A DNA stretch of 63,334 nucleotides, the filler included, from Stramenopiles sp. TOSAG23-6 (taxonomy: Eukaryota), in NCBI GenBank assembly GCA_900128565.1. It is 33 parts of 33 records of this genome, joined end to end, with 100 filler letters (N's around TTAATTAATTAA, not from the genome) between each part and the next. Parts side by side here need not be neighbours in the genome. Positions count along the whole stretch, not along the records: positions 40,450 to 42,267 come from LT638562.1; 32 more parts are not named here. One strand, written 5' to 3'. A program made the position numbers and the translations under genes. Below, piece after piece: positions 17,488 to 51,022 of this stretch. Below the pieces are notes generated by a model. That model saw nothing but the letters and a program-made list of their open reading frames with translations. It ran no database searches and was not told the DNA's origin. The first letter of the stretch is position 1; each line of letters opens with the position of its first letter.

Positions 17488-18453
17488 ATATTTCGAAAAG
17501 TAATATTTCGTACAGTTGATGCAATGCTTCCAATTGTCAAACCGACACCACTCGCATTAACATTTTCAATGACAACATTTGTTGTATCATCTTTGACACA
17601 AAAAGTATCATATACTTTGAAGAAATATTTTACATTTGGTATTTTCTTAGTACAGAAAAAAAGAAAAATTAAAAAAATATTAGGGTTAGGGGTCCTAGTT
17701 CTAGGGTTAGGGCTACTAACATACATCCTGATTCCATACATTACAGTGATGAATCCAAATATCATTTCCAGTCACATCAAATCCATCAGTATTAAACGCA
17801 GTAAGGTCAATAATAGTATGTTTTGTGCGAGATATTCTCCATGCTTCAATACTACAATAACGGATTTCTAGTCCATCAACTCCTTCAAATAGTGTAGTCC
17901 AGTATGGCGGATCTTTAAAATTTACATTTTCGATTAGAGTGTCGTTTGAATCTGTCATTCTCAAAAGTCTTGGTCTATCCTCATGCCGAATTAAATAACC
18001 AATACCTGGAATACCCCACCAATGTTGTCCAAGGCCGTCGATTAAACCTTTACCTGAACTTGTCATGGTGAAGTTTTTAAATTGAGTAAAGTGCATAAAT
18101 TCTAAAACTCCACCGTTGGAATGGTCTCTAGGCCACGTTTTGATATCTTTAGGGAGTATTAATGTACCATCCAGTTGTAGTGTTACAGAGTCTAACTTTT
18201 CTGCATGAATTCCTCCCATAACGTGAAATGTTTTGTTAGGTACAAGCAGTGTATCGCCTGGCTGTAACGTAGGTAATGTATCGTTAAATATTCGACCATT
18301 TCTCCAACAGGTGGATAGACTAGAATCATCGGGAATAAGACCACCGGATTCTTCAATATTAATAATTCTTGAAGAAATAACAATACATTTGGATGCAATC
18401 ACTAATGCACATAGGCATACGAGTAATCGAGTATAACGACAAAATAATGTCAT
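17488..18453 (-). CDS. Polygalacturonase, glycoside hydrolase family 28 (exons 18453-17725, 17609-17488)
   Basis: Signal peptide, FNTDGFD, NQD|DTFCVK (catalytic DD split by GT..AT intron 17724-17610), G.TIGS. Confidence 0.92.
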
Positions 18454-18882
18454 TTTAGATGAAAACACGTGATTCTTTTTAAATCACGTGAATTTAAAAA
18501 AAAAGGCACAAACGAAAAAAACGAAAACGAATGTCATTGACTGATTTTGTAACATTTTGTAATATATTGATTGATTTGTGTTTACTTTTTTTTGAATCAT
18601 AAATAATTTGATATGAGATCGAATATTAGTATTCGATTTCGTGTAATCATGAGATCATTTTCTGCTATTTACTTTGAAAAAATATTGAGTATTTATGAAA
18701 TTAATGAAATTAAACTTGTTTATGTTATTTAATACTTTTAGTACTTGTAGAAAAGGCAAATTAAGTTAACTACAAGCTTAGAGTTACTAGTAGGGTACCA
18801 CCGGTAAGGATATATGTCTCTGTTATTTTTTTCGTACCAAATTTCGTACCTAACAAAAACTTTTTTTTAGTACGTACCATTT

Positions 18883-21355: not shown

Positions 21356-21528
21356 CACTCTTTGTCTCTTTCTTAATTGTTCTTTAAGATTTTTCTCCGT
21401 TGCTTTGAAATTGGATGGAACGATACTATATGGATCTAATAAAATTCTTGAATGTTTTCCTTTTTCAGCCTGTATTTTACATTGTTTTTTGAAATTTGAA
21501 ATATTTTGTTAGGTATCAAATTTCGTAC

Positions 21529-21582
<54 letters not shown>

Positions 21583-21714
21583 GTTTGAAACATATAATTG
21601 GAAGGTCTTGATCCATCAACGGTTACACTCAAGTCTGGAGGACCTAACCATCGTCCACCATCTTTTTTCCGTTTCTGTTGTAGTGAAAAATATTTCAAAG
21701 TTCAATTATGAACT

Positions 21715-21816: not shown

Positions 21817-22937
21817 AAATTTGAAATTCAATTATGAAAACGTACCAAAGTTTTCGTGTAGAGAAGATTCAAATTCTACTCCTATTGATTTATCTAGAGG
21901 TATAATTTCATTTTCGCCTATAATATAGGGTGCATATTTAGCATCTCTTTCTTCCATCTCACGTTCCCATTTATCTCGTTTCAGTTGCAAACATTGTGAA
22001 AAAATATTTAAAAAAATTCAAAATTTGTTACGTACAAAATTTACTATAAAAAAAAAAAAAAAAAAATTTAAAAAAAAAAAATTGAAATGAAAACGTACAA
22101 ATCAACCGCAGATTGATATAATCGATTATACACCTTACCATTCGATTTTCGTTTAACTTTTGATAATGTATTCATTGTCATAGATACATCAACACCATCA
22201 TCTAAATGTGCTACATTTTGTTTATTTTCATCATTAGGGTTAGGGTTAGGGTTAGGGTTCAGCGTGTTTTCATCATAGGTTTCTTCATTATTATAATTCT
22301 CATGCACAATAGACATTGCCTTTTTTAATTTTTTATATACACTGTTGAAGAAATCTAATGTTGCACAAAAGTCTTTGTGGTCTATTTTGATCAATTTTGA
22401 ATGTGATAAAGTATTTGAAGTATTTGTAGTAGTACTTGTAGTAGGATTTGTAGTAGGATTTGTAGAAGGATTTGTAGTAGGATTTGTAGAAGGATTTGTA
22501 GTCGGATGAAATCGTTTCATAAGTAACTCTAAATCGTGCTTTGTCAGACCTTTTTTTCTATTACTACTAAACAAACCTAAACGTCGTAGACCATGTAATT
22601 AAAGGACAATATTTCATTTGTTTTTTTGTTAGGTACAAAATTTACTACGAAAATAACATTTGAGTTTTTTTTTTTTTGAAACGGACATTTTGAAATTCAT
22701 TTTGATCGATAAATGTATTGTAGAAAAATATTTCAAAATGTACTAAAAAAAAAAATTTGTTAGGTACAAATTTTTTTTACCAAAAAAAAAAAAGATCAAA
22801 TTTGAAAATAATTAAAACATACATCCATCGCCATTTCGATCAAATGCTGCGAAAGCTTTTGTTATATCTTTCATTTTTGTACCAAATAGTTGACGTTTTT
22901 TTTGAATCGCTTCACATAGTTTCATAATTACAATGCA
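21356..22937 (-). CDS. Multi-exon EF-hand protein
   Basis: Splicing 22822-22713 and 22686-22593 rebuilds AFAAFDRNGDGFIDQNEFQNGLRRLG. Junctions below 21850 are less certain. Confidence 0.8.
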
Positions 22938-23283: not shown

Positions 23284-24883
23284 ACAGGTTTTCAACATGG
23301 AGTGGACATTATCCAAAACAAATTCGACCAAAAGTAAATACAAAATTTGGTCCAGGTATGATTTATGGTTATCGTGATGGAGATGCTACGTTGTTAATAT
23401 GGTTACTAGACGTTTTGAAATTTTCGTATGTATGTTTTATTTTTTTTTTAACAAAAAAATCGAGTTTTTTTTTTTTGAAAATTTTGTACCTAACAATTTT
23501 TTTTTAAAAATATTTTTCCAAAATATATATTCCGTGTGAATCCGTTGATTTTTATAACATCATGAGTATATCTCAAAATAAAGTAGATGATGTTGTAGGT
23601 GATGTAAATGTTGAAAAGTCTGAAAATAAAGTAGATGATGTTGTGGGTAATGAAAATGTAGAAATGTCTCAAAATAATGAATCTTTTCAAAATATAAAGA
23701 ATTCCTTTTGTTATACAAAAGATACAAAAAATCCTTTACAACCTTGGGTTGAATATGGACTAAATGGACGAGTTGTTGCAGCAGTTGCAGCAGTTGCATT
23801 GAACAGTGAAACGTCAAAGGATACTGATGTTACTACTACTACCAGTGATGATACTGCTAATAAGGATATTAGTATCACAGTCGCTTCTATTGAATCAGTG
23901 GAGAGTACGCGATGTATGTTTTTTTTTTTGTATGAATTTATTTTTTTTTTTTTTACGGAAAAAAAAAATTTTGTACCTAACAAGTTTTTTTTTTTATAGA
24001 AAATTTTGAAATATTTTTCCAAAATACATATTGTTGAATGAATCTACAGATGTTCGAGTTGTAACTGCAATTCACACTCGAAGTATTTTACGCGAAATGG
24101 AAAAACAATCATTTGATGTTCAAGAAATTATTAAACTTCGTATAAGACAAAGTGCGAAATCTTCAATGTGCCAACAATGGAAAAATTTCAATATGGCACA
24201 GGCTAAAAAAAACACATCTTTGGATGTTGATACAATTCATTCCACGTTGAATGTATGTTTTATTTTTTTTTTTTTACAAAAAAATCGAATTTANTTTTTT
24301 TTTTTTTANGNAAAAAAAAAATTTTGTACCTAATAATTTTTTTTTTATAGAAAATTTTGAAATATTTTTCGAAAAAACATGATTCAACGAATTCTATTGG
24401 AGTACGTGAAGGAAATTATCGAAAGCCGTTGAAAGATATATCAAATATTCCAATTTTAGGTTGGTTGGACAATGTAAGTTTTTAATGTTTTATTTAAATA
24501 TTTTTTTCCTACAAAAAATTGTGCCTAACAATTTTGTTGTACCAAAAAAGAAAAAAGAAAAAAATAATATTGTTCACAAAATATAATACTGAGAGAATTA
24601 AAAATATCTTGAAAATGGATTCAAAAGACGTAAAGTCAAATCTACCTTCAAAAAATGTATATGAGAATAACTCTAATCGTATGTATGTTTTATTTTTTTT
24701 AAACAAAAAAATCGATTTTTTTTTCGTACGAAATGTTGTACCTAACGATTTTTTTTTTTAAATATTTTTCCAAAATACATTACTATTAACAAACTCGAGA
24801 TGAATTCTGTTGGAATTTATCGAGGAGCATCTCGTTATCCTAACCTTAACCCTAATGAAAAAAGGTATTCTTTTACAAGACAT
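23284..24883 (+). CDS. Series of exons of unknown protein(s) separated by family introns
   Basis: Open exons between AT-ending acceptors and GTATGT/GTAAGT donors. One junction (23914-24029) is out of phase. Confidence 0.5.
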
Positions 24884-25118
24884 GTATTTTTTTTTTTCTA
24901 ATTTCGAATTTATTTTTTGTGTTACGTATGAAATTTTGTACCTAACAAATTTTAGTTTTTTTTTTGAAATATTTTTCCAAAATANNNNNNNNNNNNNNNN
25001 NNNNNNNNNNNNNNNNNNNNNNNNNNNNTTAATTAATTAANNNNNNNNNNNNNNNNNNNNNNNNNNNNNNNNNNNNNNNNNNNNAAAATTTTTTTTTTTT
25101 TAAAAATTTAAAAAAATT

Positions 25119-25166
<48 letters not shown>

Positions 25167-25237
25167 GTAGAATATTTTGTACCTAACAATTTTTTTTTTT
25201 AGAAAAAAAAAAATATATATATTTTCCCAAAATACAG

Positions 25238-25548
25238 GTTATAATAAAAAACAAAATTCGGTACTTGTCGCAAACCTGTCGTGCAATAAAAACATTATAA
25301 AAAGAGCTATTATGTCGAGTATCGATACATATAATGACAAAAAAAAACATTTTCTAGCAAATGATTGTGATAATCCTAGTGGCAACTTTAATGAGCTACA
25401 TAAAAAAAATAATAAAAATGTTCAGAATTTTGTACAATTTTATGAAAATAATTCTAAAAATAATTGTGAAAAAGTATTTTCTTCATATGGAGATAATAAA
25501 CTTTGGTCCTTTCTGGAAAAAGATTTTGTGAAATATAAAGGAGACTAA
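25238..25548 (+). CDS. Last exon of an unknown protein
   Basis: Follows a family intron ending AAAATACAG. Confidence 0.5.
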
Positions 25549-25825
25549 GAAATTCTAAGAATTCTTGAACTCCCTGGAGTGGAATAGTTTTTGTAAAATA
25601 AAAAAAATCATAAAAATCATGAATTTTGAAAATTTATTTTCCTATATTTCGATTTATTTTGATGGATTTTTGATGTATTTTTGATGTTTTTTTTCAAAAA
25701 AAATGTAAGATTCCTACTACAATAATATCTGATTCCAAAATCTGAAAAATCTAATACTTGTAAAGTAGCTACAGTAATTGATGATTTAATCCTTTAGAAG
25801 ATATAATACCTAATACGTATCAAAG

Positions 25826-26853
25826 ATGTTTATTGATTTGCTCTGTGTAATGATTATATTTTTGCTCTTTTTGGTAAATGAAACGCGAGTCGATGCGAAG
25901 TCAAAACCTCAAGTGATCAATGTAGGTAAATTTCCTGAGACAATAGCCTTTACTGAGGAAATCATTCTCTATGAAGGCTTCAATATATCCATAAATTCTA
26001 ATGCAAATAGTTATTTTTTTAATCAAACACAAAGAGAACGAGTTGATGTGTATTTCCCGAATGGTGTACGCAACGTAAACCCTGATAGTAATCCTGAGTT
26101 TTCTTTTATATCCATGGAAAATTTTGATGGTGCACACATAGACGAGTCAAGTGAAGAGTCAATTGAAAAGGATACTTTAGATACCTTGAAATCTAGTGAT
26201 GTCCTAGTTGGTGTAAATGGTCTTCCAATTCTACCCATATCTATAAATCAAGCATTAAACACAGGAACTCTTTTAGAATCAAGGCTTCGAGGAGATGGCA
26301 ATTCTAATAATACTTTTCTCTTCCCAGTATTTGAAAGTGATTCTGGCAATTTTGATGGAAAAAGAGAAAAGGGTAAAGAAAGTACACTAGAATCTCGGGG
26401 TATAGTTTGGACTGGTGATGGTAGTAATATTTTATCAAAAAATAATGAAATTGAACAAGAATGTAATACTAATGATGATTCATGTCCAACCACTTTTGAA
26501 AAATTAGAGAATAGTCAAATACATTTAATGACAAAGAAGGGGAACAGAATTATTTATAATGGATCTGGTGGAAAGCTTTCTGGGTTCTTCAAGATGACAT
26601 GTATGTTGTATTTTTTTTTTTACAAAAAAATCGAATTTATTTTTCATACGAAATTTCGTACCTAACGAATTTTTTTTTGAAATATTTTTCCAAAATACAT
26701 ATATACCTCTACACGATAGAACATCTAAAGAAAATCTTAAATTGGGTTTTCAGCCAAATGATAAAAAACGTTTTTTCAATGTTATAAAATCAAGACAAGA
26801 AGAAAAAAAACAAAATTATATGTTTCGTTCGGAAAATCGAATTAAAAGTTTAT
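25826..26853 (+). CDS. Secreted or membrane protein of unknown function (exons 25826-26600, 26701-26853)
   Basis: Signal peptide; GT..AT intron 26601-26700 keeps the frame open to the next donor. Confidence 0.65.
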
Positions 26854-27005
26854 GTACGTTTTCATCATGAATTTATTAATTTATTATTTTTTTGGTACGA
26901 AATTTNNNNNNNNNNNNNNNNNNNNNNNNNNNNNNNNNNNNNNNNNNNNTTAATTAATTAANNNNNNNNNNNNNNNNNNNNNNNNNNNNNNNNNNNNNNN
27001 NNNNN

Positions 27006-27039
27006 AAAATTTTTTTTTTTTTAAAAATTTAAAAAAATT

Positions 27040-27087
<48 letters not shown>

Positions 27088-28826
27088 GTAGAATATTTTG
27101 TACCTAACAATTTTTTTTTTTAGAAAAAAAAAAATATATATATTTTCCCAAAATACAGGTTATAATAAAAAACAAAATTCGGTACTTGTCGCAAACCTGT
27201 CGTGCAATAAAAACATTATAAAAAGAGCTATTATGTCGAGTATCGATACATATAATGACAAAAAAAAACATTTTCTAGCAAATGATTGTGATAATCCTAG
27301 TGGCAACTTTAATGAGCTACATAAAAAAAATAATAAAAATGTTCAGAATTTTGTACAATTTTATGAAAATAATTCTAAAAATAATTGTGAAAAAGTATTT
27401 TCTTCATATGGAGATAATAAACTTTGGTCCTTTCTGGAAAAAGATTTTGTGAAATATAAAGGAGACTAAGAAATTCTAAGAATTCTTGAACTCCCTGGAG
27501 TGGAATAGTTTTTGTAAAATAAAAAAAATCATAAAAATCATGAATTTTGAAAATTTATTTTCCTATATTTCGATTTATTTTGATGGATTTTTGATGTATT
27601 TTTGATGTTTTTTTTCAAAAAAAATGTAAGATTCCTACTACAATAATATCTGATTCCAAAATCTGAAAAATCTAATACTTGTAAAGTAGCTACAGTAATT
27701 GATGATTTAATCCTTTAGAAGATATAATACCTAATACGTATCAAAGATGTTTATTGATTTGCTCTGTGTAATGATTATATTTTTGCTCTTTTTGGTAAAT
27801 GAAACGCGAGTCGATGCGAAGTCAAAACCTCAAGTGATCAATGTAGGTAAATTTCCTGAGACAATAGCCTTTACTGAGGAAATCATTCTCTATGAAGGCT
27901 TCAATATATCCATAAATTCTAATGCAAATAGTTATTTTTTTAATCAAACACAAAGAGAACGAGTTGATGTGTATTTCCCGAATGGTGTACGCAACGTAAA
28001 CCCTGATAGTAATCCTGAGTTTTCTTTTATATCCATGGAAAATTTTGATGGTGCACACATAGACGAGTCAAGTGAAGAGTCAATTGAAAAGGATACTTTA
28101 GATACCTTGAAATCTAGTGATGTCCTAGTTGGTGTAAATGGTCTTCCAATTCTACCCATATCTATAAATCAAGCATTAAACACAGGAACTCTTTTAGAAT
28201 CAAGGCTTCGAGGAGATGGCAATTCTAATAATACTTTTCTCTTCCCAGTATTTGAAAGTGATTCTGGCAATTTTGATGGAAAAAGAGAAAAGGGTAAAGA
28301 AAGTACACTAGAATCTCGGGGTATAGTTTGGACTGGTGATGGTAGTAATATTTTATCAAAAAATAATGAAATTGAACAAGAATGTAATACTAATGATGAT
28401 TCATGTCCAACCACTTTTGAAAAATTAGAGAATAGTCAAATACATTTAATGACAAAGAAGGGGAACAGAATTATTTATAATGGATCTGGTGGAAAGCTTT
28501 CTGGGTTCTTCAAGATGACATGTATGTTGTATTTTTTTTTTTACAAAAAAATCGAATTTATTTTTCATACGAAATTTCGTACCTAACGAATTTTTTTTTG
28601 AAATATTTTTCCAAAATACATATATACCTCTACACGATAGAACATCTAAAGAAAATCTTAAATTGGGTTTTCAGCCAAATGATAAAAAACGTTTTTTCAA
28701 TGTTATAAAATCAAGACAAGAAGAAAAAAAACAAAATTATATGTTTCGTTCGGAAAATCGAATTAAAAGTTTATGTACGTTTTCATCATGAATTTATTAA
28801 TTTATTATTTTTTTGGTACGAAATTT
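27006..28826. repeat. Exact duplicate of contig 25085-26905
   Basis: Identical ORFs at offset 1921. Confidence 0.97.
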
Positions 28827-36414: not shown

Positions 36415-36666
36415 TTTTTCCCTAAAAATTTTTTTTTTTTTTTTTTTTAATTTAAAAAAAAAAAAAAAATATTTTTTCACAAGATATGAATCCGATGCAA
36501 TATCAATTGNNNNNNNNNNNNNNNNNNNNNNNNNNNNNNNNNNNNNNNNNNNNTTAATTAATTAANNNNNNNNNNNNNNNNNNNNNNNNNNNNNNNNNNN
36601 NNNNNNNNNTAGGTACAAAATTTCGTATGAAAANAAATAAATTTGAAATTCATGATGAAAACGTGC

Positions 36667-40349: not shown

Positions 40350-40811
40350 NNNNNNNNNNNNNNNNNNNNNNNNNNNNNNNNNNNNNNNNNNNNTTAATTA
40401 ATTAANNNNNNNNNNNNNNNNNNNNNNNNNNNNNNNNNNNNNNNNNNNNTTTTTTTTTAATACGAAATTTCTTACCTAACCAAACCAAACCAAACAAACT
40501 TTTTTTTTTTTTTTTTTTTTTTTTTGAATCATTACAAATATTTAATGTTCATACATTTACCAACTGTGAACGACAATGAAAATATTTCTTCACAAAACAT
40601 GCATCATCTGTAAAAGTAACCAGTACTGTTTTTACTCCTATAACACAAATTTCTGATGAACAAAAACATATTTTAAAAAATGCTGCTTTGGAGTTGAGTG
40701 GTGTATGTTTTATTTTTTTTTTAAATTTTGAAATTGAATTTTTTTTTCGTAGGAAATTTTGTACCTAACAATTTTTTTAGAATTTTTTTTAAATATTTTT
40801 CCAAAATACGT

Positions 40812-41705
40812 AAAGGAATAAATCGAAATAATAATCTTCAAAAAAAGCGTGAAATTACAAATGTTGGTACAAAAAAAACTAACCCTAACCCTAGTACTAC
40901 TCTTCAAAAGAATATGGTTGGTACAAAAAAATGTACTACTAATTCTGACACGTGTCATACTGATATCCAATCAAAAAAAAGCAGTGGAAAAACACAATTT
41001 AAACCCCCATCAATAATAGTATCTACTCCTTCCAATATAATGACTGAGAGTACTGAAAACCCTAACCCTAAGAAAGTAAAAATAATTGAAAACCCTAACC
41101 CTAAGAAAGTAAAAATAATTGAAAAAAAGACAAAACAAAATAATCAAAATAATCAAAATGTAACTGTATTGGACAAACCTTTGTGTAATAATACACCTAA
41201 CCCTAACCCTAAAGACGCTACAGACAAAACGATAACACACGAAATACAGGAAAATATAAAATCTAAACCATCGAAAACAACGAAAACAACAAAAAAAATA
41301 TCAAAAGCAAAAATGGCAAATATGGAGAACATCATGGAACAACAAAACCCTAACCCTACGATAAAACACGAAATACATGAGTTACAAAACTGTGAAGATT
41401 CAGTCAAACCTGTCATTCAAAAATCAGTTGTTGTTTTAGAAACATCAACAAAAAATCTAAAAAATTTAAAAAATTCACAACAAATGAAAATTTGTACTAA
41501 AATTGATACAACTGATGGTATGGATGAAAATAGTACTATTTTGGTACCCGGTAACATTGTGTCAAAAAAACGAAATTTTCCCCAAAATACACAAAATATT
41601 TTGTCTGTACGAAAAAAACAAAAAGTTGCTCAAAAAGTTGCTCAAAAATTTGATAATAATAATAGTGAGTCAACAACAATTCTTTGTAATCTTACAAATA
41701 TTTAG
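40812..41705 (+). CDS. Last exon of a K/N/T-rich low-complexity protein
   Basis: In frame with the upstream exon through GT..GT intron 40703-40811; contains several NPNP inserts. Confidence 0.65.
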   Translation, partial: KGINRNNNLQKKREITNVGTKKTNPNPSTTLQKNMVGTKKCTTNSDTCHTDIQSKKSSGKTQFKPPSIIVSTPSNIMTESTENPNPKKVKIIENPNPKKVKIIEKKTKQNNQNNQNVTVLDKPLCNNTPNPNPKDATDKTITHEIQENIKSKPSKTTKTTKKISKAKMANMENIMEQQNPNPTIKHEIHELQNCEDSVKPVIQKSVVVLETSTKNLKNLKNSQQMKICTKIDTTDGMDENSTILVPGNIVSKKRNFPQNTQNILSVRKKQKVAQKVAQKFDNNNSESTTILCNLTNI

Positions 41706-42367
41706 TTGATGTTATTATTGAAATCAAATTTATTATTGAAATCAAAAAATCAAAAATTAGTTTCTTTCTTTTTTTTAGAAAAGTTTACATGAAAATCTTT
41801 AGGTACAAAATTTCGTATGAAAAAAAAAATCATTTTTTTTTCAAAACATTAGAAAAGTTTAAATGAACAAAATAATAATTGAAACATTTTGCATTCTCAT
41901 TATTTAAATATTATTTGAATATGATATGTACATGTATAATATACTATATACAAACTAAGTTTTAAATACAAAAATTAAAAAAGTTTAAAAAATAAAACAA
42001 ATACAAGTAATTTTTTTTTGTTGTTGTAAAAATTTAAATACAAAAATTAAAAAAGTTTAAAAAATAAAACAAATACAATTAATTTTTAAAGTGACATTTT
42101 TTGTTGTAAAAATTTAATTTCACTAAAAACATTGTTGTAGTATTTTTAGTTTATATTTTGATTTCAAAAACAAGTTTTTTTTATTTTTATTGTATAAAAA
42201 TATTTTGAATATTTTTTTTGTATGTTTTGTATTTTTTGTATTTTTTGTATTTTTTGTATTTTTTGTANNNNNNNNNNNNNNNNNNNNNNNNNNNNNNNNN
42301 NNNNNNNNNNNTTAATTAATTAANNNNNNNNNNNNNNNNNNNNNNNNNNNNNNNNNNNNNNNNNNNN

Positions 42368-44185
42368 TTTTTTTTTAATACGAAATTTCTTACCTAACCA
42401 AACCAAACCAAACAAACTTTTTTTTTTTTTTTTTTTTTTTTTTGAATCATTACAAATATTTAATGTTCATACATTTACCAACTGTGAACGACAATGAAAA
42501 TATTTCTTCACAAAACATGCATCATCTGTAAAAGTAACCAGTACTGTTTTTACTCCTATAACACAAATTTCTGATGAACAAAAACATATTTTAAAAAATG
42601 CTGCTTTGGAGTTGAGTGGTGTATGTTTTATTTTTTTTTTAAATTTTGAAATTGAATTTTTTTTTCGTAGGAAATTTTGTACCTAACAATTTTTTTAGAA
42701 TTTTTTTTAAATATTTTTCCAAAATACGTAAAGGAATAAATCGAAATAATAATCTTCAAAAAAAGCGTGAAATTACAAATGTTGGTACAAAAAAAACTAA
42801 CCCTAACCCTAGTACTACTCTTCAAAAGAATATGGTTGGTACAAAAAAATGTACTACTAATTCTGACACGTGTCATACTGATATCCAATCAAAAAAAAGC
42901 AGTGGAAAAACACAATTTAAACCCCCATCAATAATAGTATCTACTCCTTCCAATATAATGACTGAGAGTACTGAAAACCCTAACCCTAAGAAAGTAAAAA
43001 TAATTGAAAACCCTAACCCTAAGAAAGTAAAAATAATTGAAAAAAAGACAAAACAAAATAATCAAAATAATCAAAATGTAACTGTATTGGACAAACCTTT
43101 GTGTAATAATACACCTAACCCTAACCCTAAAGACGCTACAGACAAAACGATAACACACGAAATACAGGAAAATATAAAATCTAAACCATCGAAAACAACG
43201 AAAACAACAAAAAAAATATCAAAAGCAAAAATGGCAAATATGGAGAACATCATGGAACAACAAAACCCTAACCCTACGATAAAACACGAAATACATGAGT
43301 TACAAAACTGTGAAGATTCAGTCAAACCTGTCATTCAAAAATCAGTTGTTGTTTTAGAAACATCAACAAAAAATCTAAAAAATTTAAAAAATTCACAACA
43401 AATGAAAATTTGTACTAAAATTGATACAACTGATGGTATGGATGAAAATAGTACTATTTTGGTACCCGGTAACATTGTGTCAAAAAAACGAAATTTTCCC
43501 CAAAATACACAAAATATTTTGTCTGTACGAAAAAAACAAAAAGTTGCTCAAAAAGTTGCTCAAAAATTTGATAATAATAATAGTGAGTCAACAACAATTC
43601 TTTGTAATCTTACAAATATTTAGTTGATGTTATTATTGAAATCAAATTTATTATTGAAATCAAAAAATCAAAAATTAGTTTCTTTCTTTTTTTTAGAAAA
43701 GTTTACATGAAAATCTTTAGGTACAAAATTTCGTATGAAAAAAAAAATCATTTTTTTTTCAAAACATTAGAAAAGTTTAAATGAACAAAATAATAATTGA
43801 AACATTTTGCATTCTCATTATTTAAATATTATTTGAATATGATATGTACATGTATAATATACTATATACAAACTAAGTTTTAAATACAAAAATTAAAAAA
43901 GTTTAAAAAATAAAACAAATACAAGTAATTTTTTTTTGTTGTTGTAAAAATTTAAATACAAAAATTAAAAAAGTTTAAAAAATAAAACAAATACAATTAA
44001 TTTTTAAAGTGACATTTTTTGTTGTAAAAATTTAATTTCACTAAAAACATTGTTGTAGTATTTTTAGTTTATATTTTGATTTCAAAAACAAGTTTTTTTT
44101 ATTTTTATTGTATAAAAATATTTTGAATATTTTTTTTGTATGTTTTGTATTTTTTGTATTTTTTGTATTTTTTGTATTTTTTGTA
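42368..44185. repeat. Exact duplicate of contig 40450-42267
   Basis: Identical ORFs at offset 1918. Confidence 0.97.
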
Positions 44186-45100: not shown

Positions 45101-45775
45101 TCATTTTCCATGAATTTTCTGTAGAAATAATTGAATTTCTTCATCATCTAATCCTAAATTATTCAAATCTTTTTCAGTTGTATCATATAAATCTAAAACG
45201 CAACGTACATGTATTGAGAAAAAATATTTCAAACATTTAATTTTTTGTTAGATGAAAAATTAAAAAAAAAAAAAAATTAAAAAAAAAAATTTGAAATTTT
45301 GAAAAATTTAAAAAAAATTAAAAAAAATTTAAAATTTTAAAATTATGAAAATGTACATTTTGTTCACTAATTAAAACATTTTGTAAATGACTCATATCAA
45401 TACGAGCTAAGAATAAAGTCAATTGTTCAAGTTCTTCATTTTCTTTAAAACTATTTTCAGACGATTTCAAATTTGATTTTTTTTTCAAATTTTTTTCAGA
45501 TTTTTCATTAGGGTTAGGGTTAAATCCAAATTTTTCTTCAAATTCTTTTTCTTTTAAAGCATGACGTTGTCGAGCACGATTTGCTAATCGCATTTGACGT
45601 TTTTCTCGTTTTTGATTTATTTCATATTCAGTTAATGGAGGATGTTGCAATCTATACTCTGCTTTTTTTATGAAGTATATTGTAAAGAAATATTAAATTT
45701 TTTTTTCTTCTTTTTTTTTGTTAGGTACAAAATTTCGTATGAAAAAAAAAAAAAAATTTTACAAAAAAAAAAAAA

Positions 45776-45818
<43 letters not shown>

Positions 45819-46003
45819 AAATTTTTTTGAAAAATGTACAATTTTCGATGTTTTGAATGTAATAATAATCTTTCATCTCTTTCTTGCCTCTCTTTTCTTA
45901 TTTTATCTTTTACATCTTGAACTCTTTTTTTTTCACGTTCAATACCTTCTTTTGTGATTAAACTTGATGCAATTTTTGGCATTTCACGTAATTCTAAAGC
46001 AGC
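45101..46003 (-). CDS. Coiled-coil protein with C-terminal SAM-like domain (exons 46003-45840, 45672-45357, 45208-45101)
   Basis: Spliced FLARIDMSHLQNVLISEQN|VRCVLDLYDTTEKDLNNLGL; introns GT..TT and GT..AT. Confidence 0.7.
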
Positions 46004-46098: not shown

Positions 46099-46264
46099 AA
46101 AAANNNNNNNNNNNNNNNNNNNNNNNNNNNNNNNNNNNNNNNNNNNNTTAATTAATTAANNNNNNNNNNNNNNNNNNNNNNNNNNNNNNNNNNNNNNNNN
46201 NNNAAATTTTGTACCTAACAAAAAATTTTAGATTTTTTTTTTGAAATATTTTTCCAAAGTACAT

Positions 46265-47925
46265 GGGACTTGTCATTTGAATTTTCATGAAACATCATCA
46301 GTATCCTCTCAACCAACAGGATTCGTAAATAATACAGCTCCAATAATTAATAATGTACACGATATTCCTGTAATGATTACTAGTGAATACGATTATATTG
46401 AACCAGCTCGTTCATATATTCAAAACTCGCCTACTACTATAGTCTCTTCTTCCACTGAGATAAAATCAGAAAATATTTCACCATTAAGTAAAGAGATTAC
46501 AGAAACAATTTCAATGACTTGTAAAGGTCAAACAAAAGTTTCCTCTTCACCTTCTTTTTCAGTAGAAAATAGTCAAACAAAAGTTTCCTCTTCACCTTCT
46601 TCTTCAGTAGAAAATAGTGGTATATACTCTGATGAATTTGAGACTTCAATTGATTTAAATAAACAAAATGATTCAGATAATGATGTGAGGAAGTCAATAC
46701 AAGAAATTTCAAATAATGACATGAAGAATATTTCCCCGGAAGAATTAAAAGTGAATGAGACAATTTCTGAGGAAGGAAAAAAAGAATTTTTTGAGAGAGA
46801 AAAAAGAAATGACGAAAATAAATCTCAACAAATTTTGGAAGAAGTAAAACAATGCAACTTTAAAAATGATAATGACGATAATGATGGTGGTGACAACTTA
46901 GAAAATGATAATGACGATAATGATGTTGGTGATGGAAATATTTCTGGATTTAGTGGGGGAGACGAAAGTTACGAAAGTCAACAATTTTTAAAAACTATCC
47001 CTAGCAAAAGTCGAGAAGAGAGTGCTATAATAAGCCCAAGAAGTACAATAATACCCCAGAGAGATTCTTTGGGTTCTGTTCACTCTGATTGGAATGGTGG
47101 AAACATTAGTTTCTCCGGTGGCGAAGAAGAATATTTAAATGAATCTTTTATTGAAGACATCAATGATGATGAACAAGATGATATTATTGAAGATATCAAT
47201 GATGATGAACAAGATGATGGAGAAAAGTTTAGTCCTAACCGTAATGAAGAGAATATCGTTGAAGAAGATAAAGATGATGATATTGTTGAAGAAGGTAATG
47301 AAGAGAATATCGTTGAAGAAGATAAAGATGATGATATCGTTGAAGAAGATAAAGATGATGATATTGTTGAAGAAGATAAAGATGATGATATTGTTGAAGA
47401 AGATAAAGATGATGAATATGATTTTGATGATGTGGATACAGATAAATATTCTTCTAAGCAGTCGAATGAAAAACATATTTATGATTGGAAGATGCATATC
47501 AGTAATTATATTCACGATTTAACGGAAGGAAATCAAAATTATTATTCAGAGAATCTCAAAGCTGCAGCTGAACGACAATATCATTATCAATCACAAATTG
47601 AGCCAATATCTGAAGATAATCAAATAACATTTGATGTCTTAGATGTCAATGATTTTGTCAATCACGAACGAAATAATGAGAAAATATCTGGACATTCTGT
47701 TGAGTATATGCAAATACATGTACGTTTTCGTTATGAATTTAATTTTTTTTTTGGTTTTCGTAGGAAATTTTATACCTAACAAAAAAACAAAAAAATATTT
47801 CTTCACAATACATAATAAGGTTTTATTTGATTTGATTAATGACGAGTTGAAAGAAATGTTACCACCAAAACCAATACCACAATGGTCGAAACATCAGAGA
47901 TGTTTCAATCCTCTTCTCTCTACAT
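46265..47925 (+). CDS. Acidic repeat protein with DUF4378-like C-terminus
   Basis: IVEEDKDDD repeats; IH|NKVLFDLINDEL across intron 47720-47813. Confidence 0.65.
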
Positions 47926-48533
47926 GTATGTTTTTTTTTTTTTTTCTATGAATTTATTTTTCATACGAAATTTTGTACCTAACAATTTTTTTAGATTTTT
48001 TTGAAATATTTTTCCAAAATNNNNNNNNNNNNNNNNNNNNNNNNNNNNNNNNNNNNNNNNNNNNTTAATTAATTAANNNNNNNNNNNNNNNNNNNNNNNN
48101 NNNNNNNNNNNNNNNNNNNNTGAATTTCTAATTTAATTTTTTTTTCATACGAAATTTCGTACCTAACGATTTTTTTTGAAATATTTTTCCAAAATACATG
48201 TGGAGTGCTGCAAAGCGGGAGAGGGAAAGAAAACGATTACCAGATATGGAAGACAAAGTTGCTAAAGCAGTAAGACGAGCATCGGTTGTTCCGCCGACCC
48301 GTAAATTAAAATAAAATTTTATAGCTAAAAAACTTGTAAAAAAAAAATACTCGAATTTTAATAACATAAACTAAAACATTACTAAATTATGACTTGTCCC
48401 GAAGTCTCGATATAATACAAAATTTTAAAAAAATCAAATTTTCGCTCCTCTGATGATCGATCGATGATGTTCTCTTTCGTGTCGAAAAACTATAAATCAA
48501 TTTTAGTGTATGTACATTTTAAAAAAAAGAAGA

Positions 48534-49872
48534 ATGAGCCCCATAAAAACTGGCGATGATGTAAATATTACTGCCCTTCAATCAGAAATTCGCAGTGCAA
48601 TAATGAATAAAAAAGTGAACGCTTGTCCTATTGCAATTCGCCTTGCCTGGCACGCAAGTGGAACCTATAACAAACATGATAAAACAGGAGGTAGCAATGG
48701 TGCTCGGATGAGGTTTCACCCAGAAAAAGACGATGAAGCTAATGCAGGTTTATCAATAACACGTGATTTATTGCAGCGTATAAAACGAAATCACCCTGAA
48801 ATTTCTAATGCAGATTTATGGGCTGTGGCGGGAGCATCCGCGTGTGAATTTGCTGGTGGACCGAAAATTAGAGTTCAACTTGGTAGAACAGATGATTGCA
48901 ACGGTGAAAAGTCTCCTCCCCCTGGTCGCCTACCAGATGCAAGTAAGGGTGCTCAGCACTTACGTGATGTTTTTTATCGTATGGGATTTAATGATCAAGA
49001 GATTGTTGCTCTTAGTGGTGCACACACTCTTGGTCGTTGTCATTTAACTAGAAGTGGTTTCGATGGACCTTGTACGTTTTCATATTAATTTCAAATTTAT
49101 TTTTTTTTGTACCAAATTTTGTACCTAACACATTTTTTTTTTCAAATATTTTTCACAAGACTTGGACACCGAATCCTTTAAAGTTTGATAATCAGTATTT
49201 CAAGTTGCTCATGGGTTTAGATTGGACACCAAGGCAATGGGAAGGAAATTTCCAATACGCTGATCCTAGTGGTCAATTAATGATGTTACCTACCGACATG
49301 TATGTTAACCCTAACCCTAACAAAAGAAATAATCATGATTTTTTTTACTATAAAAATGCATGTAACCCTAACAAATTTCAAATTTTTGAAATATTTTTTA
49401 CAATGCATGGCATTAAAAACAGATTCTAAATTCAGAGTTTGGGCTGAAAAATATGCAAAAGATGAAAAACTATTTTTTAAAGATTTTGCAAAAGCTTATG
49501 CAAAACTAATCAGTCTTGGTTGTAAACGAAAACAAGAACCTACAACAGGTTTATCAAGGGAAGAGAGAGTGACATACGAAGCAAGCATGCAATTACAGGA
49601 AGCAGCTATGTACGTTTCCATGATACATTTCAAATATTTTTTTTTTTTTTTCAATTTTTTTTTTCAATTTTTTTTTAAAAATTTTTCGTACGAAATTCCG
49701 TACCTAACATTTTTTTTTCTAAAATATTTTTTCACAATATATGCATGGGTCTTTAGCTCTTGTCAAGCGACTTGCTGAAGGCATACGTGAAGATGGAGTA
49801 CCCACAACAAAATTTGATGGTCAAGGTGATATTAGTTCAGTAGAAAGTGCTTCTGGTCGAACTGCACTACAT
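48534..49872 (+). CDS. Class I heme peroxidase (ascorbate/cytochrome c peroxidase) with C-terminal ankyrin repeats (exons 48534-49071, 49164-49299, 49409-49609, 49743-49872)
   Basis: [43 protein letters not shown], then EAA|MHGS and GRTALH. Confidence 0.93.
49072..49163 (+). other. Non-canonical GT..TT family intron
   Basis: Removal restores GP-W-TPNP; the only nearby AG (CACAAG) gives a frameshift and stop. Confidence 0.9.
49300..49408 (+). other. Non-canonical GT..AT family intron
   Basis: Removal restores LPTD-M-AL; there is no AG after the branch motif and the next exonic AG gives a stop. Confidence 0.9.
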
Positions 49873-50090
49873 GTACGTTTTCATCATGAATTTATTAATT
49901 TATTATTTTTTTGGTACGAAATTTTGTACCTAAACAANNNNNNNNNNNNNNNNNNNNNNNNNNNNNNNNNNNNNNNNNNNNTTAATTAATTAANNNNNNN
50001 NNNNNNNNNNNNNNNNNNNNNNNNNNNNNNNNNNNNNTTGTACCTAACAAATTTAAGTTTTTTTTTTTGAAATATTTTTCCAAAATACAT

Positions 50091-51022
50091 GGGTATTACA
50101 AACAGAATGAAAAAATTGGAAGAAACTTTGCGACCATACCATTCCGCAGCTCGTAGCATAGGCTTAGTACCGTCTACAGCAAAATATGCTCGTGGTGAGG
50201 ACTATGAACTTCAACTTCGTGCAAATTATGATCCAGAGGCTCACTTGGGCCAATCGGACTTGGTAGATGGTCTTCTTTCTTTTGATGTAAAAGCTGTTTT
50301 AAAACCAAGATTACAAGAACTACGCAGTGAGTTTATAGCAAAAGGTCATCGTTTACACGCTGAATATTTACGAGCAAAGGAAACTCTTGATAACACTGAA
50401 GATCTACTCAGAGCTGAAAAAGAAGCTGTCGCTGAACTTAATTTTGAACTGGAGCGTAAAGAAAAAACTCTAGACAAAGAAATTGGTCGAGAAAGACGCA
50501 TGTATGCAGCAGAAACAAAGAGAGCTCAAGATATTGAAGATGAATTGGAATACATGTATGTTTTATTTTTTTTTTTAACAAAAAAATCGAATTTTTTTTC
50601 ATACGAAATTTTGTACTTAACGATTTTTTTTCAAATATTTTTCCAAAATACATAAAAAACGCAAGAATTGGTTGTGCACAACAAGAAGAACGTCTTGTTA
50701 CAGTATGTGGTAAGTTGAAAGAAACTTTGGAATACACTAAAGAAGATCACATTCGTGCGTTGAAACAAATCAGTGAACAATTGGTCGAGTCTTTGACTGT
50801 AGTAGCGGATCATAAGCAAGTCGTTCAAGGGACTATTTCGCACACCCTCGCAGAGTTGCAGTCACGAGTACTATGTATGTTTTATATTTTTTTCAATTTC
50901 GATTTTTTTTTTATAGTAAATTTTGTACCTAACAAAGTTTAGTTTTTTTTTTTGAAATATTTTTCCAAAATACATTATTGGAAGAACAGGAAATGAGTAC
51001 TTCTACAGATGAATTAATCTAA
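50091..51022 (+). CDS. Coiled-coil protein C-terminus (exons 50091-50555, 50654-50874, 50976-51022)
   Basis: ORFs 50089 and 50715 join in frame via GT..AT introns. Confidence 0.7.

What the first reader, a model, noticed from the sequence alone, without database searches (positions are those of the whole stretch)
40700..40815. Intron end copies the last two exon bases: Introner-like element with GTAT...ATAC inverted ends and 2-bp target duplication
Seen: when the acceptor is not AT it matches the dinucleotide before the donor. Cases are GT|GTATGT...ATAC-GT| (40703-40811), TT|GTACGT...AGAC-TT| (49072-49163), TT|GTACAT...ATAC-TT| (45839-45673), TT|GTACGT...ATGT-TT| (22098-21989) and probably AG|GT...AG| (51446-51300). 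Most others are AT|...AT|. The inner ends GTAT(G)TTTT and AAAATAC are inverted repeats. Inference: a short TIR element inserts with a 2-bp duplication (AT preferred), and splicing removes the element plus one copy, restoring the ORF. An alternative is 3' site choice by matching the 5' exon end. Counter-examples exist (CA, GA, CT or TT before GT with an AT end: 8539, 986, 842, 52761, 7880).
Basis: partly seen in the sequence, partly recalled or inferred. Interest (0 to 1): 0.85.

Follow-up and report, generated by a model that had tools for sequence, protein, structure and literature searches.

The report
Mobile intron family lacking AG ends
About two thirds of the gene fragments in this marine protist DNA are interrupted by copies of one ~100-base intron that usually ends in AT instead of the universal AG and is flanked by a two-base repeat, the footprint expected of a jumping element that creates new introns.

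Summary
40703-40811 is one copy of a ~92-211-nt, 16%-GC intron family. It has three conserved blocks: GTAYGTTTT at the 5' end, a core CGTACGAAATTTTGTACCTAAC, and GAAATATTTTTCCAAAATAC plus 2 nt at the 3' end. I curated 37 different complete copies in 30 unrelated ~1.8-kb scaffolds.

The 2 nt before GT equal the 2 nt after the terminal AC in 28 of 37 copies. All TT (3) and GT (1) ends match. Of the three AG ends, two do not match. Permutation p is about 5e-6.

One junction (TT/TT, 49072-49163) is fixed to the base by peroxidase homology. Another (49610-49742) is joined in a polyA-RNA contig, and no register of it gives GT-AG or AT-AC.

The element core is hugely over-represented in seawater DNA and RNA runs, and sub-families reach 92% identity.

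Best reading (about 0.55): an introner-type mobile intron with a 2-bp target duplication, whose 3' cut is placed by the element rather than by AG.

Against this reading:
- The inverted ends are only 4 nt.
- No transposase was found.
- 9 of 37 flanks mismatch.
- In 11 of 37 copies (8 robust) removing "element + 2 nt" breaks the frame.

This is a new variant of a known kind, comparable to the non-canonical introns of Amoebophrya and Fritillaria.

The parts
40703..40811 (+). Finding's intron copy, 109 nt: GT|GTATGTTTTATT...TTTGTACCTAAC...CCAAAATAC-GT|. It contains an unused TTTTTTTAG downstream of the branch-like motif.
   Evidence: (profile 3-111, 58.5 bits). The upstream open stretch lacks an ATG.
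42621..42729 (+). The same intron on a byte-identical redundant scaffold (42368-44185 = 40450-42267). It was not counted separately.
49072..49163 (+). Intron in a class-I peroxidase gene, TT|GTACGT...CAAGAC-TT|. The equivalent registers are GT..TT, TG..CT and TT..AC. An AG 5 nt before the end is not used.
   Evidence: (PF00141). On 1jci_A exon 1 ends at residue 190 and exon 2 starts at residue 192, so one codon t|gg spans the join.
49300..49408 (+). Second peroxidase intron, CAT|GTATGTTAACCC...ACAATGCAT|G, with a 4-nt CATG repeat at the boundaries.
   Evidence: The exon 2 end ...MMLPTD aligns to 1jci_A residue 235.
49610..49742 (+). Third peroxidase intron, 133 nt, AT|GTACGT...CACAATAT-AT|. 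This is the RNA-confirmed removal.
   Evidence: RNA contig X5 record 23 lies on 49523-49606 and 49740-49837 with nothing between. That is the same product as removing 49610-49742, because of the TATG repeat.
45673..45839 (-). TT|GTACAT...ATATAC-TT| copy, 167 nt.
21989..22098 (-). TT|GTACGT...CAATGT-TT| copy, 110 nt. The match extends to a third base (TTT/TTT).
51300..51446 (-). AG|GTTTAC...AAATGT-AG| diverged copy. The frame test is ambiguous.
21470..21591 (-). AT|GTTTCA...AAAATAC-AG| copy. It has a non-AT end that does not match the exon end, and the frame is off by 2.
53321..53531 (+). AA|GTACGT...AAAAAAC-AG| long copy (211 nt). The flanks do not match and the frame is off by 1.
7880..8070 (+). 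TT|GTATGT...CAATAT-AT| composite copy with two cores. The flanks mismatch, but the frame fits only the AT position.
8539..8699 (+). CA|GTATGT...TTCAAC-AT| diverged copy. The flanks mismatch, but the frame fits the AT position.
9211..9331 (+). AT|GTACGT...AAAATAC-AT| copy in a protein-kinase gene. Removing 'element + 2' breaks the frame (off by 1), so the true boundary is unknown.
   Evidence: Exon 2 is a kinase catalytic loop.
52761..52869 (+). CT|GTATGT...CATAATCC-AT| copy. The frame is off by 2, and the element is open in frame with both exons.
   Evidence: The gene has a Carn_acyltransf hit.
54462..54563 (+). AT|GTATGT...CACAATAC-AT| consensus-like copy. The frame is off by 2, with 186 open codons upstream and 262 downstream.
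26601..26700 (+). Member of the youngest-looking sub-family (shared segment ACAAAAAAATCGAA), together with 50556-50653, 55278-55373, 24683-24780, 23430-23528 and 11094-10986. Pairwise identity is 85-92%.
18823..18861 (+). Partial core copy lying between two minus-strand genes and antisense to both.
   Evidence: (E = 5e-7).
41788..41845 (-). Partial core copy downstream of the stop of the + strand ORF 40728-41705, on the opposite strand, in sequence without long ORFs.
   Evidence: (E = 1.4e-7).

Best explanation
The segment is one copy of an introner-type family: a short, non-autonomous, AT-rich mobile sequence of typically 95-120 nt that has colonised the genes of this organism.

The organism is a marine stramenopile, judged from the source name of the only near-identical public protein.

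Each copy brings three blocks:
- a 5' splice site, GTAYGTTTT;
- a branch-site-like core, CGTACGAAATTTTGTACCTAAC;
- a conserved 3' block ending in ..AAAATAC.

On insertion it duplicates 2 bp of the target. AT is strongly preferred, in an (A)CAT|G context that resembles the joined element ends.

RNA processing then cuts before GT and, in most copies, 2 nt after the terminal AC. That removes the element plus one copy of the duplication and restores the ORF. The last two intron bases are therefore whatever the target was (AT, rarely TT or GT), and AGs inside the 3' part are ignored.

Shown:
- The family exists and has very high copy number.
- Two junctions use non-AG boundaries.
- The flank match is statistically real.

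Inferred:
- DNA-level transposition as the origin.
- The spliceosome as the machine that removes the copies.
- TACCTAAC as the branch site.
- The reason for the AT preference.
For: Family and copy number:
- The 17-mer core has 70 matches against 1.47 expected.
- The profile search gives 70 hits with E<=0.01, covering 5414 of 60107 non-N bases, in 19 of 30 different scaffolds.
- 16 of 64 scaffold ends fall inside a copy, against 9% of bases covered (p = 1.3e-4).
- Summed contig depth over the element cores is 13,000-109,000, against roughly 0-60 over most exon bins, in seawater RNA and DNA runs. 699, 53, 695 and 4789 contigs were laid, mostly on the cores.
- Sub-families share segments with no obvious splicing role. 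29 of 630 pairs reach >=80% identity and the best reaches 92%.

Flank match:
- 28 of 37 flanks match, including TT/TT in 3 copies and GT/GT in 1.
- Permutation p = 5e-6 for the non-AT matches, and 9.5e-5 within the 24 frame-fitting copies.

Boundaries:
- Removing GT..(AC+2) keeps the frame in 26 of 37 copies, against about 12 expected (p = 5e-6).
- The TT/TT junction is fixed to the base.
- An RNA contig joins 49606|49740.

Signals:
- Across 46 5' ends, the first intron base is G in 46 and the second is T in 45. A is at +3 in 40.
- Across 48 3' ends, the last base is T in 44 and G in 4.
- 16 of the 31 copies in which the motif CTAA[C/G/T] was found contain an internal AG between it and the end.

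Copies outside introns: two partial copies lie outside ORFs, antisense to the neighbouring genes.
Against: - The inverted termini are only GTAT/ATAC plus homopolymer. RNAalifold finds no conserved pairing in 22 copies, and single folds give z-scores from +1.5 to -2.2.
- None of the 39 ORFs or exons scanned shows a transposase, integrase or reverse transcriptase. Scaffolds of 1.8 kb could hardly hold one.
- 9 of 37 flanks mismatch. In the 7 mismatches with an AT end it is always the exon side that differs.
- In 11 of 37 copies (8 with robust frames) removing 'element + 2' is out of frame. Those copies cannot be simple insertions into an intact ORF, including consensus-like 54462 and kinase intron 9211.
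- 23 of the 28 matches are AT/AT. These cannot be told apart from a consensus on both sides.
- Every intron recognised here looks like a family member, AG-ended ones included. That would also fit an organism-wide splicing code.
- Only one junction has RNA support. That contig comes from an RNA library that could hold DNA.
- Profile scores of mismatched copies are lower (median 21.8 against 42.5 bits, p = 0.008). Without the seed copies the difference is not significant (p = 0.098).
Confidence: 0.55

Rival explanations
1. Lineage-wide splicing code. In this organism ordinary, partly ancient spliceosomal introns must carry extended signals (GTAYGTTTT, TACCTAAC, the 3' block), and the usual CAG|GT...YAG|G has become CAT|GT...CAT|G. 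The AT before the donor and the AT at the acceptor are then two consensus sites, not a duplication.
For: - The exon end is T at -1 in 42 of 46, A at -2 in 33 of 46 and C at -3 in 19 of 46. The intron end is ..ACAT, followed by G in 25 of 48. This mirrors the canonical AG|G...AG|G pattern (recalled knowledge).
- AG-ended copies occupy the same aligned position.
- In mismatches the 3' AT is always kept.
- 8 robust copies cannot be clean insertions.
Against: - About 55 conserved positions in roughly one intron per kb is far beyond known splicing signals.
- Sub-families share segments without obvious signal value, at up to 92% identity.
- All 4 TT/GT ends match their exon ends (p about 1e-4 to 5e-6).
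- Partial copies occur outside genes and in antisense orientation.
Confidence: 0.2
2. RNA-mediated spread. Excised introns reverse-splice into new transcripts after ..AT and are copied back into the genome. No duplication is made, and the terminal AT belongs to the intron.
For: - Strong orientation and genic bias: 37 of 37 complete copies are in the sense orientation within ORF-bearing sequence.
- The 3' AT is invariant in mismatched copies.
- The inverted repeats are weak.
Against: - It does not predict that TT and GT intron ends co-occur with TT and GT exon ends.
- It does not explain the antisense partial copies outside genes.
- It has the same problem with the 11 off-frame copies.
Confidence: 0.1
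3. The 3' cut is chosen by matching the last bases of the 5' exon.
For: 5 of 7 non-AT ends equal the exon end.
Against: - At 8539 (exon end CA) a CA ends 1 nt before the AT end. At 7880 (exon end TT) a TT lies 2 nt after it. In both only the AT position keeps the frame.
- 9 of 37 copies do not match at all.
Confidence: 0.05
4. Not RNA splicing or not real: assembly chimeras across a repeat, pseudogenes, or DNA-level excision as with ciliate internal eliminated sequences.
For: - The assembly is fragmentary and breaks at the repeat.
- 11 of 37 copies are off-frame.
- The joined contig comes from a library that could contain DNA.
Against: - Three introns of one conserved peroxidase gene are flanked by consecutive peroxidase exons.
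- Kinase exons flank 9211.
- The frame fit is far above chance.
- A DNA contig runs from exon into intron at 49032-49114, while the joined form was seen in polyA RNA.
- The standard genetic code gives long ORFs.
Confidence: 0.04

Closest known systems
Introner elements of Micromonas pusilla and Aureococcus anophagefferens, and the 548 introner families of Gozashti et al. 2022 (PMC9860276, passages read; review PMC11282704, section 6 and passages)
   Same: - Many similar introns in unrelated genes.
- Short and AT-rich.
- Locus-specific repeat at the two boundaries.
- The element supplies splicing signals, and removal restores the mRNA in most copies.
   Different: - Those families use GT/GC/GA-AG boundaries and have TSDs described as 3-9 bp.
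- Here the 3' end is AT in 30 of 37 copies, TT in 3, GT in 1 and AG in only 3. The repeat is 2 bp and the inverted termini are 4 nt.
- Their pipeline starts from annotated introns. A family that the annotation misses would not be found, and the one public gene model I saw (P0001) reads through this one.
Non-canonical introner elements of Amoebophrya (PMC7789003, passages read)
   Same: - Repeated introns without GT-AG.
- Direct repeats overlapping the exon/intron borders, so that the exact cut is ambiguous.
- No transposase inside.
- A marine protist.
   Different: - Amoebophrya elements have 8-20-nt inverted repeats forming a hairpin, 3-5-nt direct repeats and no fixed terminal dinucleotides.
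- Here GT is found at 45 of 46 5' ends. There is a yeast-like GTAYGT and a TACTAAC-like motif (resemblance recalled), and no conserved hairpin.
Non-canonical introns of the tunicate Fritillaria borealis (as summarised in PMC11282704, section 6; the original paper was not read)
   Same: - Transposon-derived introns with TSD-like repeats.
- Non-AG 3' ends, including ..AT.
- Thought to be removed by an adapted major spliceosome.
   Different: - Fritillaria introns are mostly AG-AC or AG-AT and are preceded by exonic TAC.
- Here the 5' end stays GT, and one sequence family dominates.
Euglenid nonconventional introns (PMC11282704, section 6)
   Same: Non-canonical borders with TSD-like repeats at the junctions, and a suspected MITE origin.
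   Different: Euglenid introns are defined by pairing of their ends and lack spliceosomal motifs. Here no conserved pairing was found, and spliceosome-like GTAYGT and TACCTAAC motifs are present.
U12-type and U2-type AT-AC introns (recalled knowledge)
   Same: When the flanks are AT/AT the intron can be written AT-GTA...AC, that is AT-AC.
   Different: - There is no ATATCC/GTATCC donor.
- The branch-like motif lies 32-56 nt from the end in 29 of the 31 copies in which it was found, not 10-26 nt.
- The RNA-confirmed intron has no AT-AC register, because its terminal AC is AT.

Membership tests
Introner (transposon-derived intron family) | Many sequence-similar introns at unrelated loci | tested here: met
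   - 37 unique complete copies, plus partial copies, in 19 of 30 different scaffolds.
- 29 of 630 pairs reach >=80% identity.
- Massive depth of the core in independent seawater runs.
Introner (transposon-derived intron family) | Target-site duplication: a locus-specific match between the 5' and 3' boundary positions | tested here: met
   28 of 37 match. 5 of the 7 non-AT ends match, p = 5e-6. The weight rests on 4 copies (TT in 3, GT in 1).
Introner (transposon-derived intron family) | Terminal inverted repeats (>=6 nt in the criterion of PMC9860276) | tested here: not met
   Only GTAT...ATAC (4 nt) followed by a T-run and an A-run. This feature is not obligatory: the same paper reports TIRs in 72 of 177 families.
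Introner (transposon-derived intron family) | Removal restores the pre-insertion reading frame | tested here: inconclusive
   26 of 37 copies fit (15 robust). 11 do not (8 robust).
Introner (transposon-derived intron family) | Recent mobility: presence/absence between strains, or lineage-specific positions | not testable with these tools
   - No whole genome is held.
- The metagenome contig collection gave no real copies.
- The single read-laying run covered one scaffold.
U2-type spliceosomal intron | GT (or GC) at the 5' end with an extended donor | tested here: met
   The first base is G in 46 of 46 and the second is T in 45 of 46 (one GC donor at 36666). Consensus GTAYGTTTT.
U2-type spliceosomal intron | AG at the 3' end | tested here: not met
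   The last base is G in 4 of 48 ends and T in 44 of 48. The two junctions fixed by homology or RNA end TT and AT.
U2-type spliceosomal intron | Branch site used in lariat formation | not testable with these tools
   TACCTAAC is conserved, but no lariat reads were available.
U12-type intron | A/GTATCCTT donor and TCCTTAAC 10-26 nt from the 3' end (recalled definition) | tested here: not met
   The donor is GTAYGTTTT. The branch-like motif lies 32-56 nt from the end in 29 of the 31 copies in which it was found. There are no Rfam snRNA hits in the window.
Amoebophrya-type or euglenid-type structure-defined intron | Intron ends paired in a conserved stem | tested here: not met
   0 consensus pairs in 22 copies. 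3 of 6 single folds are no better than shuffles.
Ciliate-type internal eliminated sequence | TA-bounded and excised from DNA | tested here: not met
   The boundaries are AT, not TA. A DNA contig keeps the intron, while a polyA-RNA contig lacks one. Absence of the joined form from DNA was not shown.

The most novel reading that the evidence does not exclude
Nearly the whole intron complement of this stramenopile lineage derives from one mobile family. Its splicing machinery has stopped reading AG: the 3' cut is positioned by an element-borne 3' block, about 32-56 nt after TACCTAAC. The machinery accepts whatever dinucleotide the 2-bp target duplication left there (AU, UU, GU, AG). This would be a third, independent and unusually clean case, after Fritillaria and Amoebophrya, of a spliceosome re-tuned by a transposon invasion. 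The GU...AU / G1-U(-1) terminal pair would replace G1-G(-1).
Probability: 0.3. Interest if true: 0.85.

Novelty: new variant of a known kind. Interest (0 to 1): 0.68.

Why it matters
Transposon-made introns with non-canonical ends are known from only a few lineages. They are the best living models for how introns spread and how spliceosomes adapt.

This case would add a heterotrophic marine stramenopile with a very simple rule: GT donor, conserved branch-like box, and a non-AG end at a fixed place. It also has a 2-bp footprint. Both make the 3'-site recognition question directly testable.

There is a practical consequence. The one public gene model from the same or a near-identical assembly that I could inspect reads into such an intron and removes four in-frame pieces instead. 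Proteomes predicted with GT-AG rules for such genomes are therefore probably systematically wrong.

Tried and rejected
- **Whole-genome test.** No genome is held for this window, so the contingency test was done on the window only.
- **Read laying on 20 kb.** One scaffold was laid instead.
- **RNA cover of the TT/TT intron.** No RNA contig was shown across 49072-49163. Its exon 2 bins had depth 0 in the three RNA runs, so there is no RNA verdict for that junction.
- **DNA run X3.** It did not cover the exons around 49610-49742. Absence of the joined form from DNA, and presence/absence polymorphism, could therefore not be judged.
- **Metagenome contig scans.** Five attempts did not complete. 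A 25-mer found 0 loci. The profile found only 4 weak partial hits in them. These are chance matches and gave no extra copies.
- **Homology to fix the off-frame junction 52761.** The word-based search found nothing. The exhaustive search gave 11 weak hits covering residues 5-59 only. The junction stays unresolved.
- **Kinase junction 9211.** Exon 2 aligns to catalytic loops, but exon 1 has no PDB match. The number of residues encoded at the join could not be fixed.
- **Conserved RNA structure.** None was found.
- **Rfam.** There are no matches at gathering score. One meaningless match with E = 1 turned up in a 501-nt test stretch.
- **'Older copies lose the repeat'.** The difference is significant only when the profile's own seed copies are included, so I reject it as evidence.
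- **My first kinesin junction analysis.** It joined two unrelated scaffolds and was discarded.
- **Literature.**
  - Searches found no paper on such introns in marine stramenopiles.
  - In PMC5778133, 'intron' occurs twice, in methods only. The terms 'splice', 'canonical' and 'non-canonical' do not occur.
  - In PMC9860276 and PMC12130899, 'stramenopile' and 'MAST' do not occur.
  - Supplementary tables of these papers, which hold the species and family lists and the gene-prediction details, could not be seen and might list this family.
Full report
**What the window is.**
- It is AT-rich eukaryotic DNA, 20-40% GC, with ordinary eukaryotic genes. Pfam finds kinesin, ZZ/TAZ, AAA_34, fn3, SNAP, GH28, V-ATPase H, U-box, peroxidase, carnitine acyltransferase and NDC80.
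- It is not one locus. It is 33 scaffolds of 1833 to 1810 nt, sorted by length and joined by N-TTAATTAATTAA-N linkers.
- Three scaffolds are byte-identical repeats of their neighbours. That leaves 30 different, unrelated pieces.
- The apparent tandem duplications, and continuity across linkers, are artefacts of this layout. I dropped one early junction analysis for that reason.
- The kinesin ORF 6499-7581 is identical in every aligned block to a public gene model, P0001. Its source name (eukprot: GSMAST32...) points to an uncultured marine stramenopile.
- That model reads straight into an intron (…NCTFSS) and removes four in-frame pieces.

**The element.**
- The segment 40703-40811 is one copy of a family. 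The core AAATTTTGTACCTAACA occurs 70 times with up to 3 mismatches, against 1.47 expected.
- A profile built from 18 copies finds 70 hits with E<=0.01. They cover 9% of the non-N bases and lie in 19 of 30 different scaffolds.
- I curated 37 different complete copies. For the 36 without internal N, length is 92-211 nt (median 109) and GC is 16%.
- Consensus: (a)CAT | GTAYGTTTT ... TTTTCGTACGAAATTTTGTACCTAAC ... GAAATATTTTTCCAAAATAC AT | G.
- Over 46 5' ends the intron begins G (46), T (45), A (40), Y (45), G (37).
- Over 48 3' ends the last base is T in 44 and G in 4. One mis-typed coordinate in that call is corrected under Tried and rejected.

**The listed cases.**
- *49072-49163.* Exon 1 aligns to cytochrome c peroxidase chain 1jci_A up to residue 190. 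Exon 2 aligns from residue 192. Exactly one codon, t|gg, spans the join.
  - The removed 92 nt are therefore GT..TT, TG..CT or TT..AC and nothing else.
  - The AG 5 nt before the end is not used.
- *22098-21989 and 45839-45673.* Both keep long frames open.
- *40703-40811.* It keeps a frame open too, but the 41 open codons upstream hold no ATG. It may be a 5'-UTR intron, so its GT/GT reading rests on the element alignment.
- *51446-51300 (AG/AG).* Its frame is ambiguous.

**Is the match more than chance?**
- I compared the 2 nt before GT with the 2 nt after the aligned AC. This needs no assumption about where the cut is.
- 28 of 37 copies match: AT/AT in 23, TT/TT in 3, GT/GT in 1 and AG/AG in 1.
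- The mismatches are CT/AT in 3, and TT/AT, GT/AT, GA/AT, CA/AT, AT/AG and AA/AG in 1 each.
- In 200,000 permutations of the 3' dinucleotides, at least 5 non-AT matches occurred with p = 5e-6, and at least 28 matches overall with p = 1e-5. Within the 24 frame-fitting copies p = 9.5e-5.
- The signal rests on four copies (TT in 3, GT in 1). The 23 AT/AT pairs cannot be told apart from a consensus on both sides.

**Where the cut is.**
- Removing GT through AC+2 keeps the reading frame in 26 of 37 copies, against about 12 expected (p = 5e-6). Of these 26, 15 have robust frames on both sides.
- Eleven copies do not fit, and 8 of them are robust. They include consensus-like 54462 and intron 9211, which is followed by a kinase catalytic-loop exon.
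- For these copies no choice of splice sites can make 'insertion into an intact ORF plus a 2-bp duplication' work.
- Their real boundaries could be, for example, the upstream ..AAT| or the bare ..AC|. I could not determine them.

**RNA.**
- Six metatranscriptome runs and six DNA runs hold parts of 46241-56200. Only one scaffold could be laid.
- A 182-nt contig of a polyA RNA run lies on 49523-49606 and 49740-49837 with nothing between.
- This is exactly the product of removing 49610-49742. The 4-nt TATG repeat makes five registers equivalent: TA..TA, AT..AT, TG..TA, GT..AT and TA..TG. None is GT-AG or AT-AC.
- A DNA contig runs from exon into intron at 49032-49114.
- Summed depth over the element cores is 13,000-109,000, against roughly 0-60 over most exon bins. 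Most of the 699, 53, 695 and 4789 contigs laid sit on the cores. The family is therefore extremely abundant in seawater DNA and RNA.

**Signs of mobility.**
- Sub-families share segments with no obvious splicing role. For example, ACAAAAAAATCGAA occurs in 26601, 50556, 55278, 24683, 23430 and 11094, which are 85-92% identical to each other.
- 16 of 64 scaffold ends fall in a copy, against 9% of bases covered (p = 1.3e-4).
- Two partial cores lie outside ORFs and antisense to the neighbouring genes.

**Signs against mobility.**
- The inverted ends are 4 nt, and there is no conserved pairing.
- No transposase-like ORF was found among the 39 ORFs or exons scanned.
- No polymorphism data could be obtained.

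**How it most likely works.**
- My best reading (about 0.55) is an introner. It is a non-autonomous element that duplicates 2 bp, with AT preferred in an ACAT|G context resembling its own joined ends.
- It carries its donor, a TACTAAC-like box and a 3' block.
- The cut falls 2 nt after the terminal AC whatever stands there. Internal AGs are passed over in 16 of the 31 copies in which the motif was found.
- In mismatched copies the 3' AT is always kept. This suggests that AU (or at least U at -1) has itself become a preferred acceptor.

**Rivals.**
- A lineage-wide CAT|GT...CAT|G splicing code without transposition (0.2).
- Reverse-splicing spread (0.1).
- Cut-by-matching (0.05). Copies 8539 and 7880 argue against it.
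- Artefact or DNA-level excision (0.04).

**Comparison and novelty.**
- Transposon-derived introns are well known (PMC9860276, passages). Non-canonical ones with boundary repeats are described for Amoebophrya (PMC7789003, passages), and for Fritillaria and euglenids (PMC11282704, section 6).
- This family shares the logic but differs in four ways:
  - it has a fixed GT donor and yeast-like motifs;
  - its non-AG end sits at a fixed place;
  - its repeat is 2 bp;
  - it has no terminal hairpin.
- Four literature searches and term look-ups in three papers found no description of it in marine stramenopiles. Their supplementary lists could not be seen.
- I rate it a new variant of a known kind.

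Noticed in passing
whole window; linkers e.g. 1834-1933, 7633-7732: The window is a pseudo-molecule: 33 scaffolds of 1833-1810 nt in descending length, joined by N-TTAATTAATTAA-N. Three scaffolds are exact repeats of their neighbours (1-1833 = 1934-3766; 25085-26905 = 27006-28826; 40450-42267 = 42368-44185). Neighbouring genes are therefore not linked.
   Followed up: yes
6499-7581 (+): The public gene model P0001 for this kinesin is identical in all aligned blocks, but it removes four in-frame pieces (7, 8, 11 and 22 residues) and ends by reading into the intron at 7565. GT-AG-based annotation of this genome seems to be systematically wrong.
   Followed up: partly
111-122, 1145-1162, 8229-8240, 17680-17691, 22234-22257, 41060-41212, 45508-45519, 49309-49320: Telomere-like TTAGGG/CCCTAA runs of 2-4 units occur 17 times (redundant scaffolds included). 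They lie inside ORFs (read as NPNPNP) and inside one intron (49309), on at least 7 different scaffolds.
   Followed up: no
element core, e.g. 8860-8871: The core contains a perfect 12-nt palindrome, TTTCGTACGAAA. This is why the profile also hits the opposite strand weakly at many copies.
   Followed up: no
36666 (-): One copy begins GCACGTTTTCAT, a GC donor variant. Its 3' half is lost in a gap.
   Followed up: no
3867-5699: This scaffold has higher GC (0.40) and a 627-residue ORF (3811-5694, -) without Pfam hits and without any element copy. In all, 11 of 30 scaffolds carry no copy, several being single long ORFs (55785-63334). Whether all belong to the same organism was not checked.
   Followed up: no
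54452-54573, 26591-26710: Where the flanks are ACAT and ATGT, the exon-intron borders form an 8-bp terminal stem (ACAUGUAU/AUACAUGU), with fold z-scores of -2.2 and -1.8. Other copies show nothing of the kind.
   Followed up: partly
52387-53049 (+): The copy at 52761-52869 is open in frame with both neighbouring exons, giving a continuous 221-codon ORF. Retention would add 37 residues rather than a stop.
   Followed up: partly
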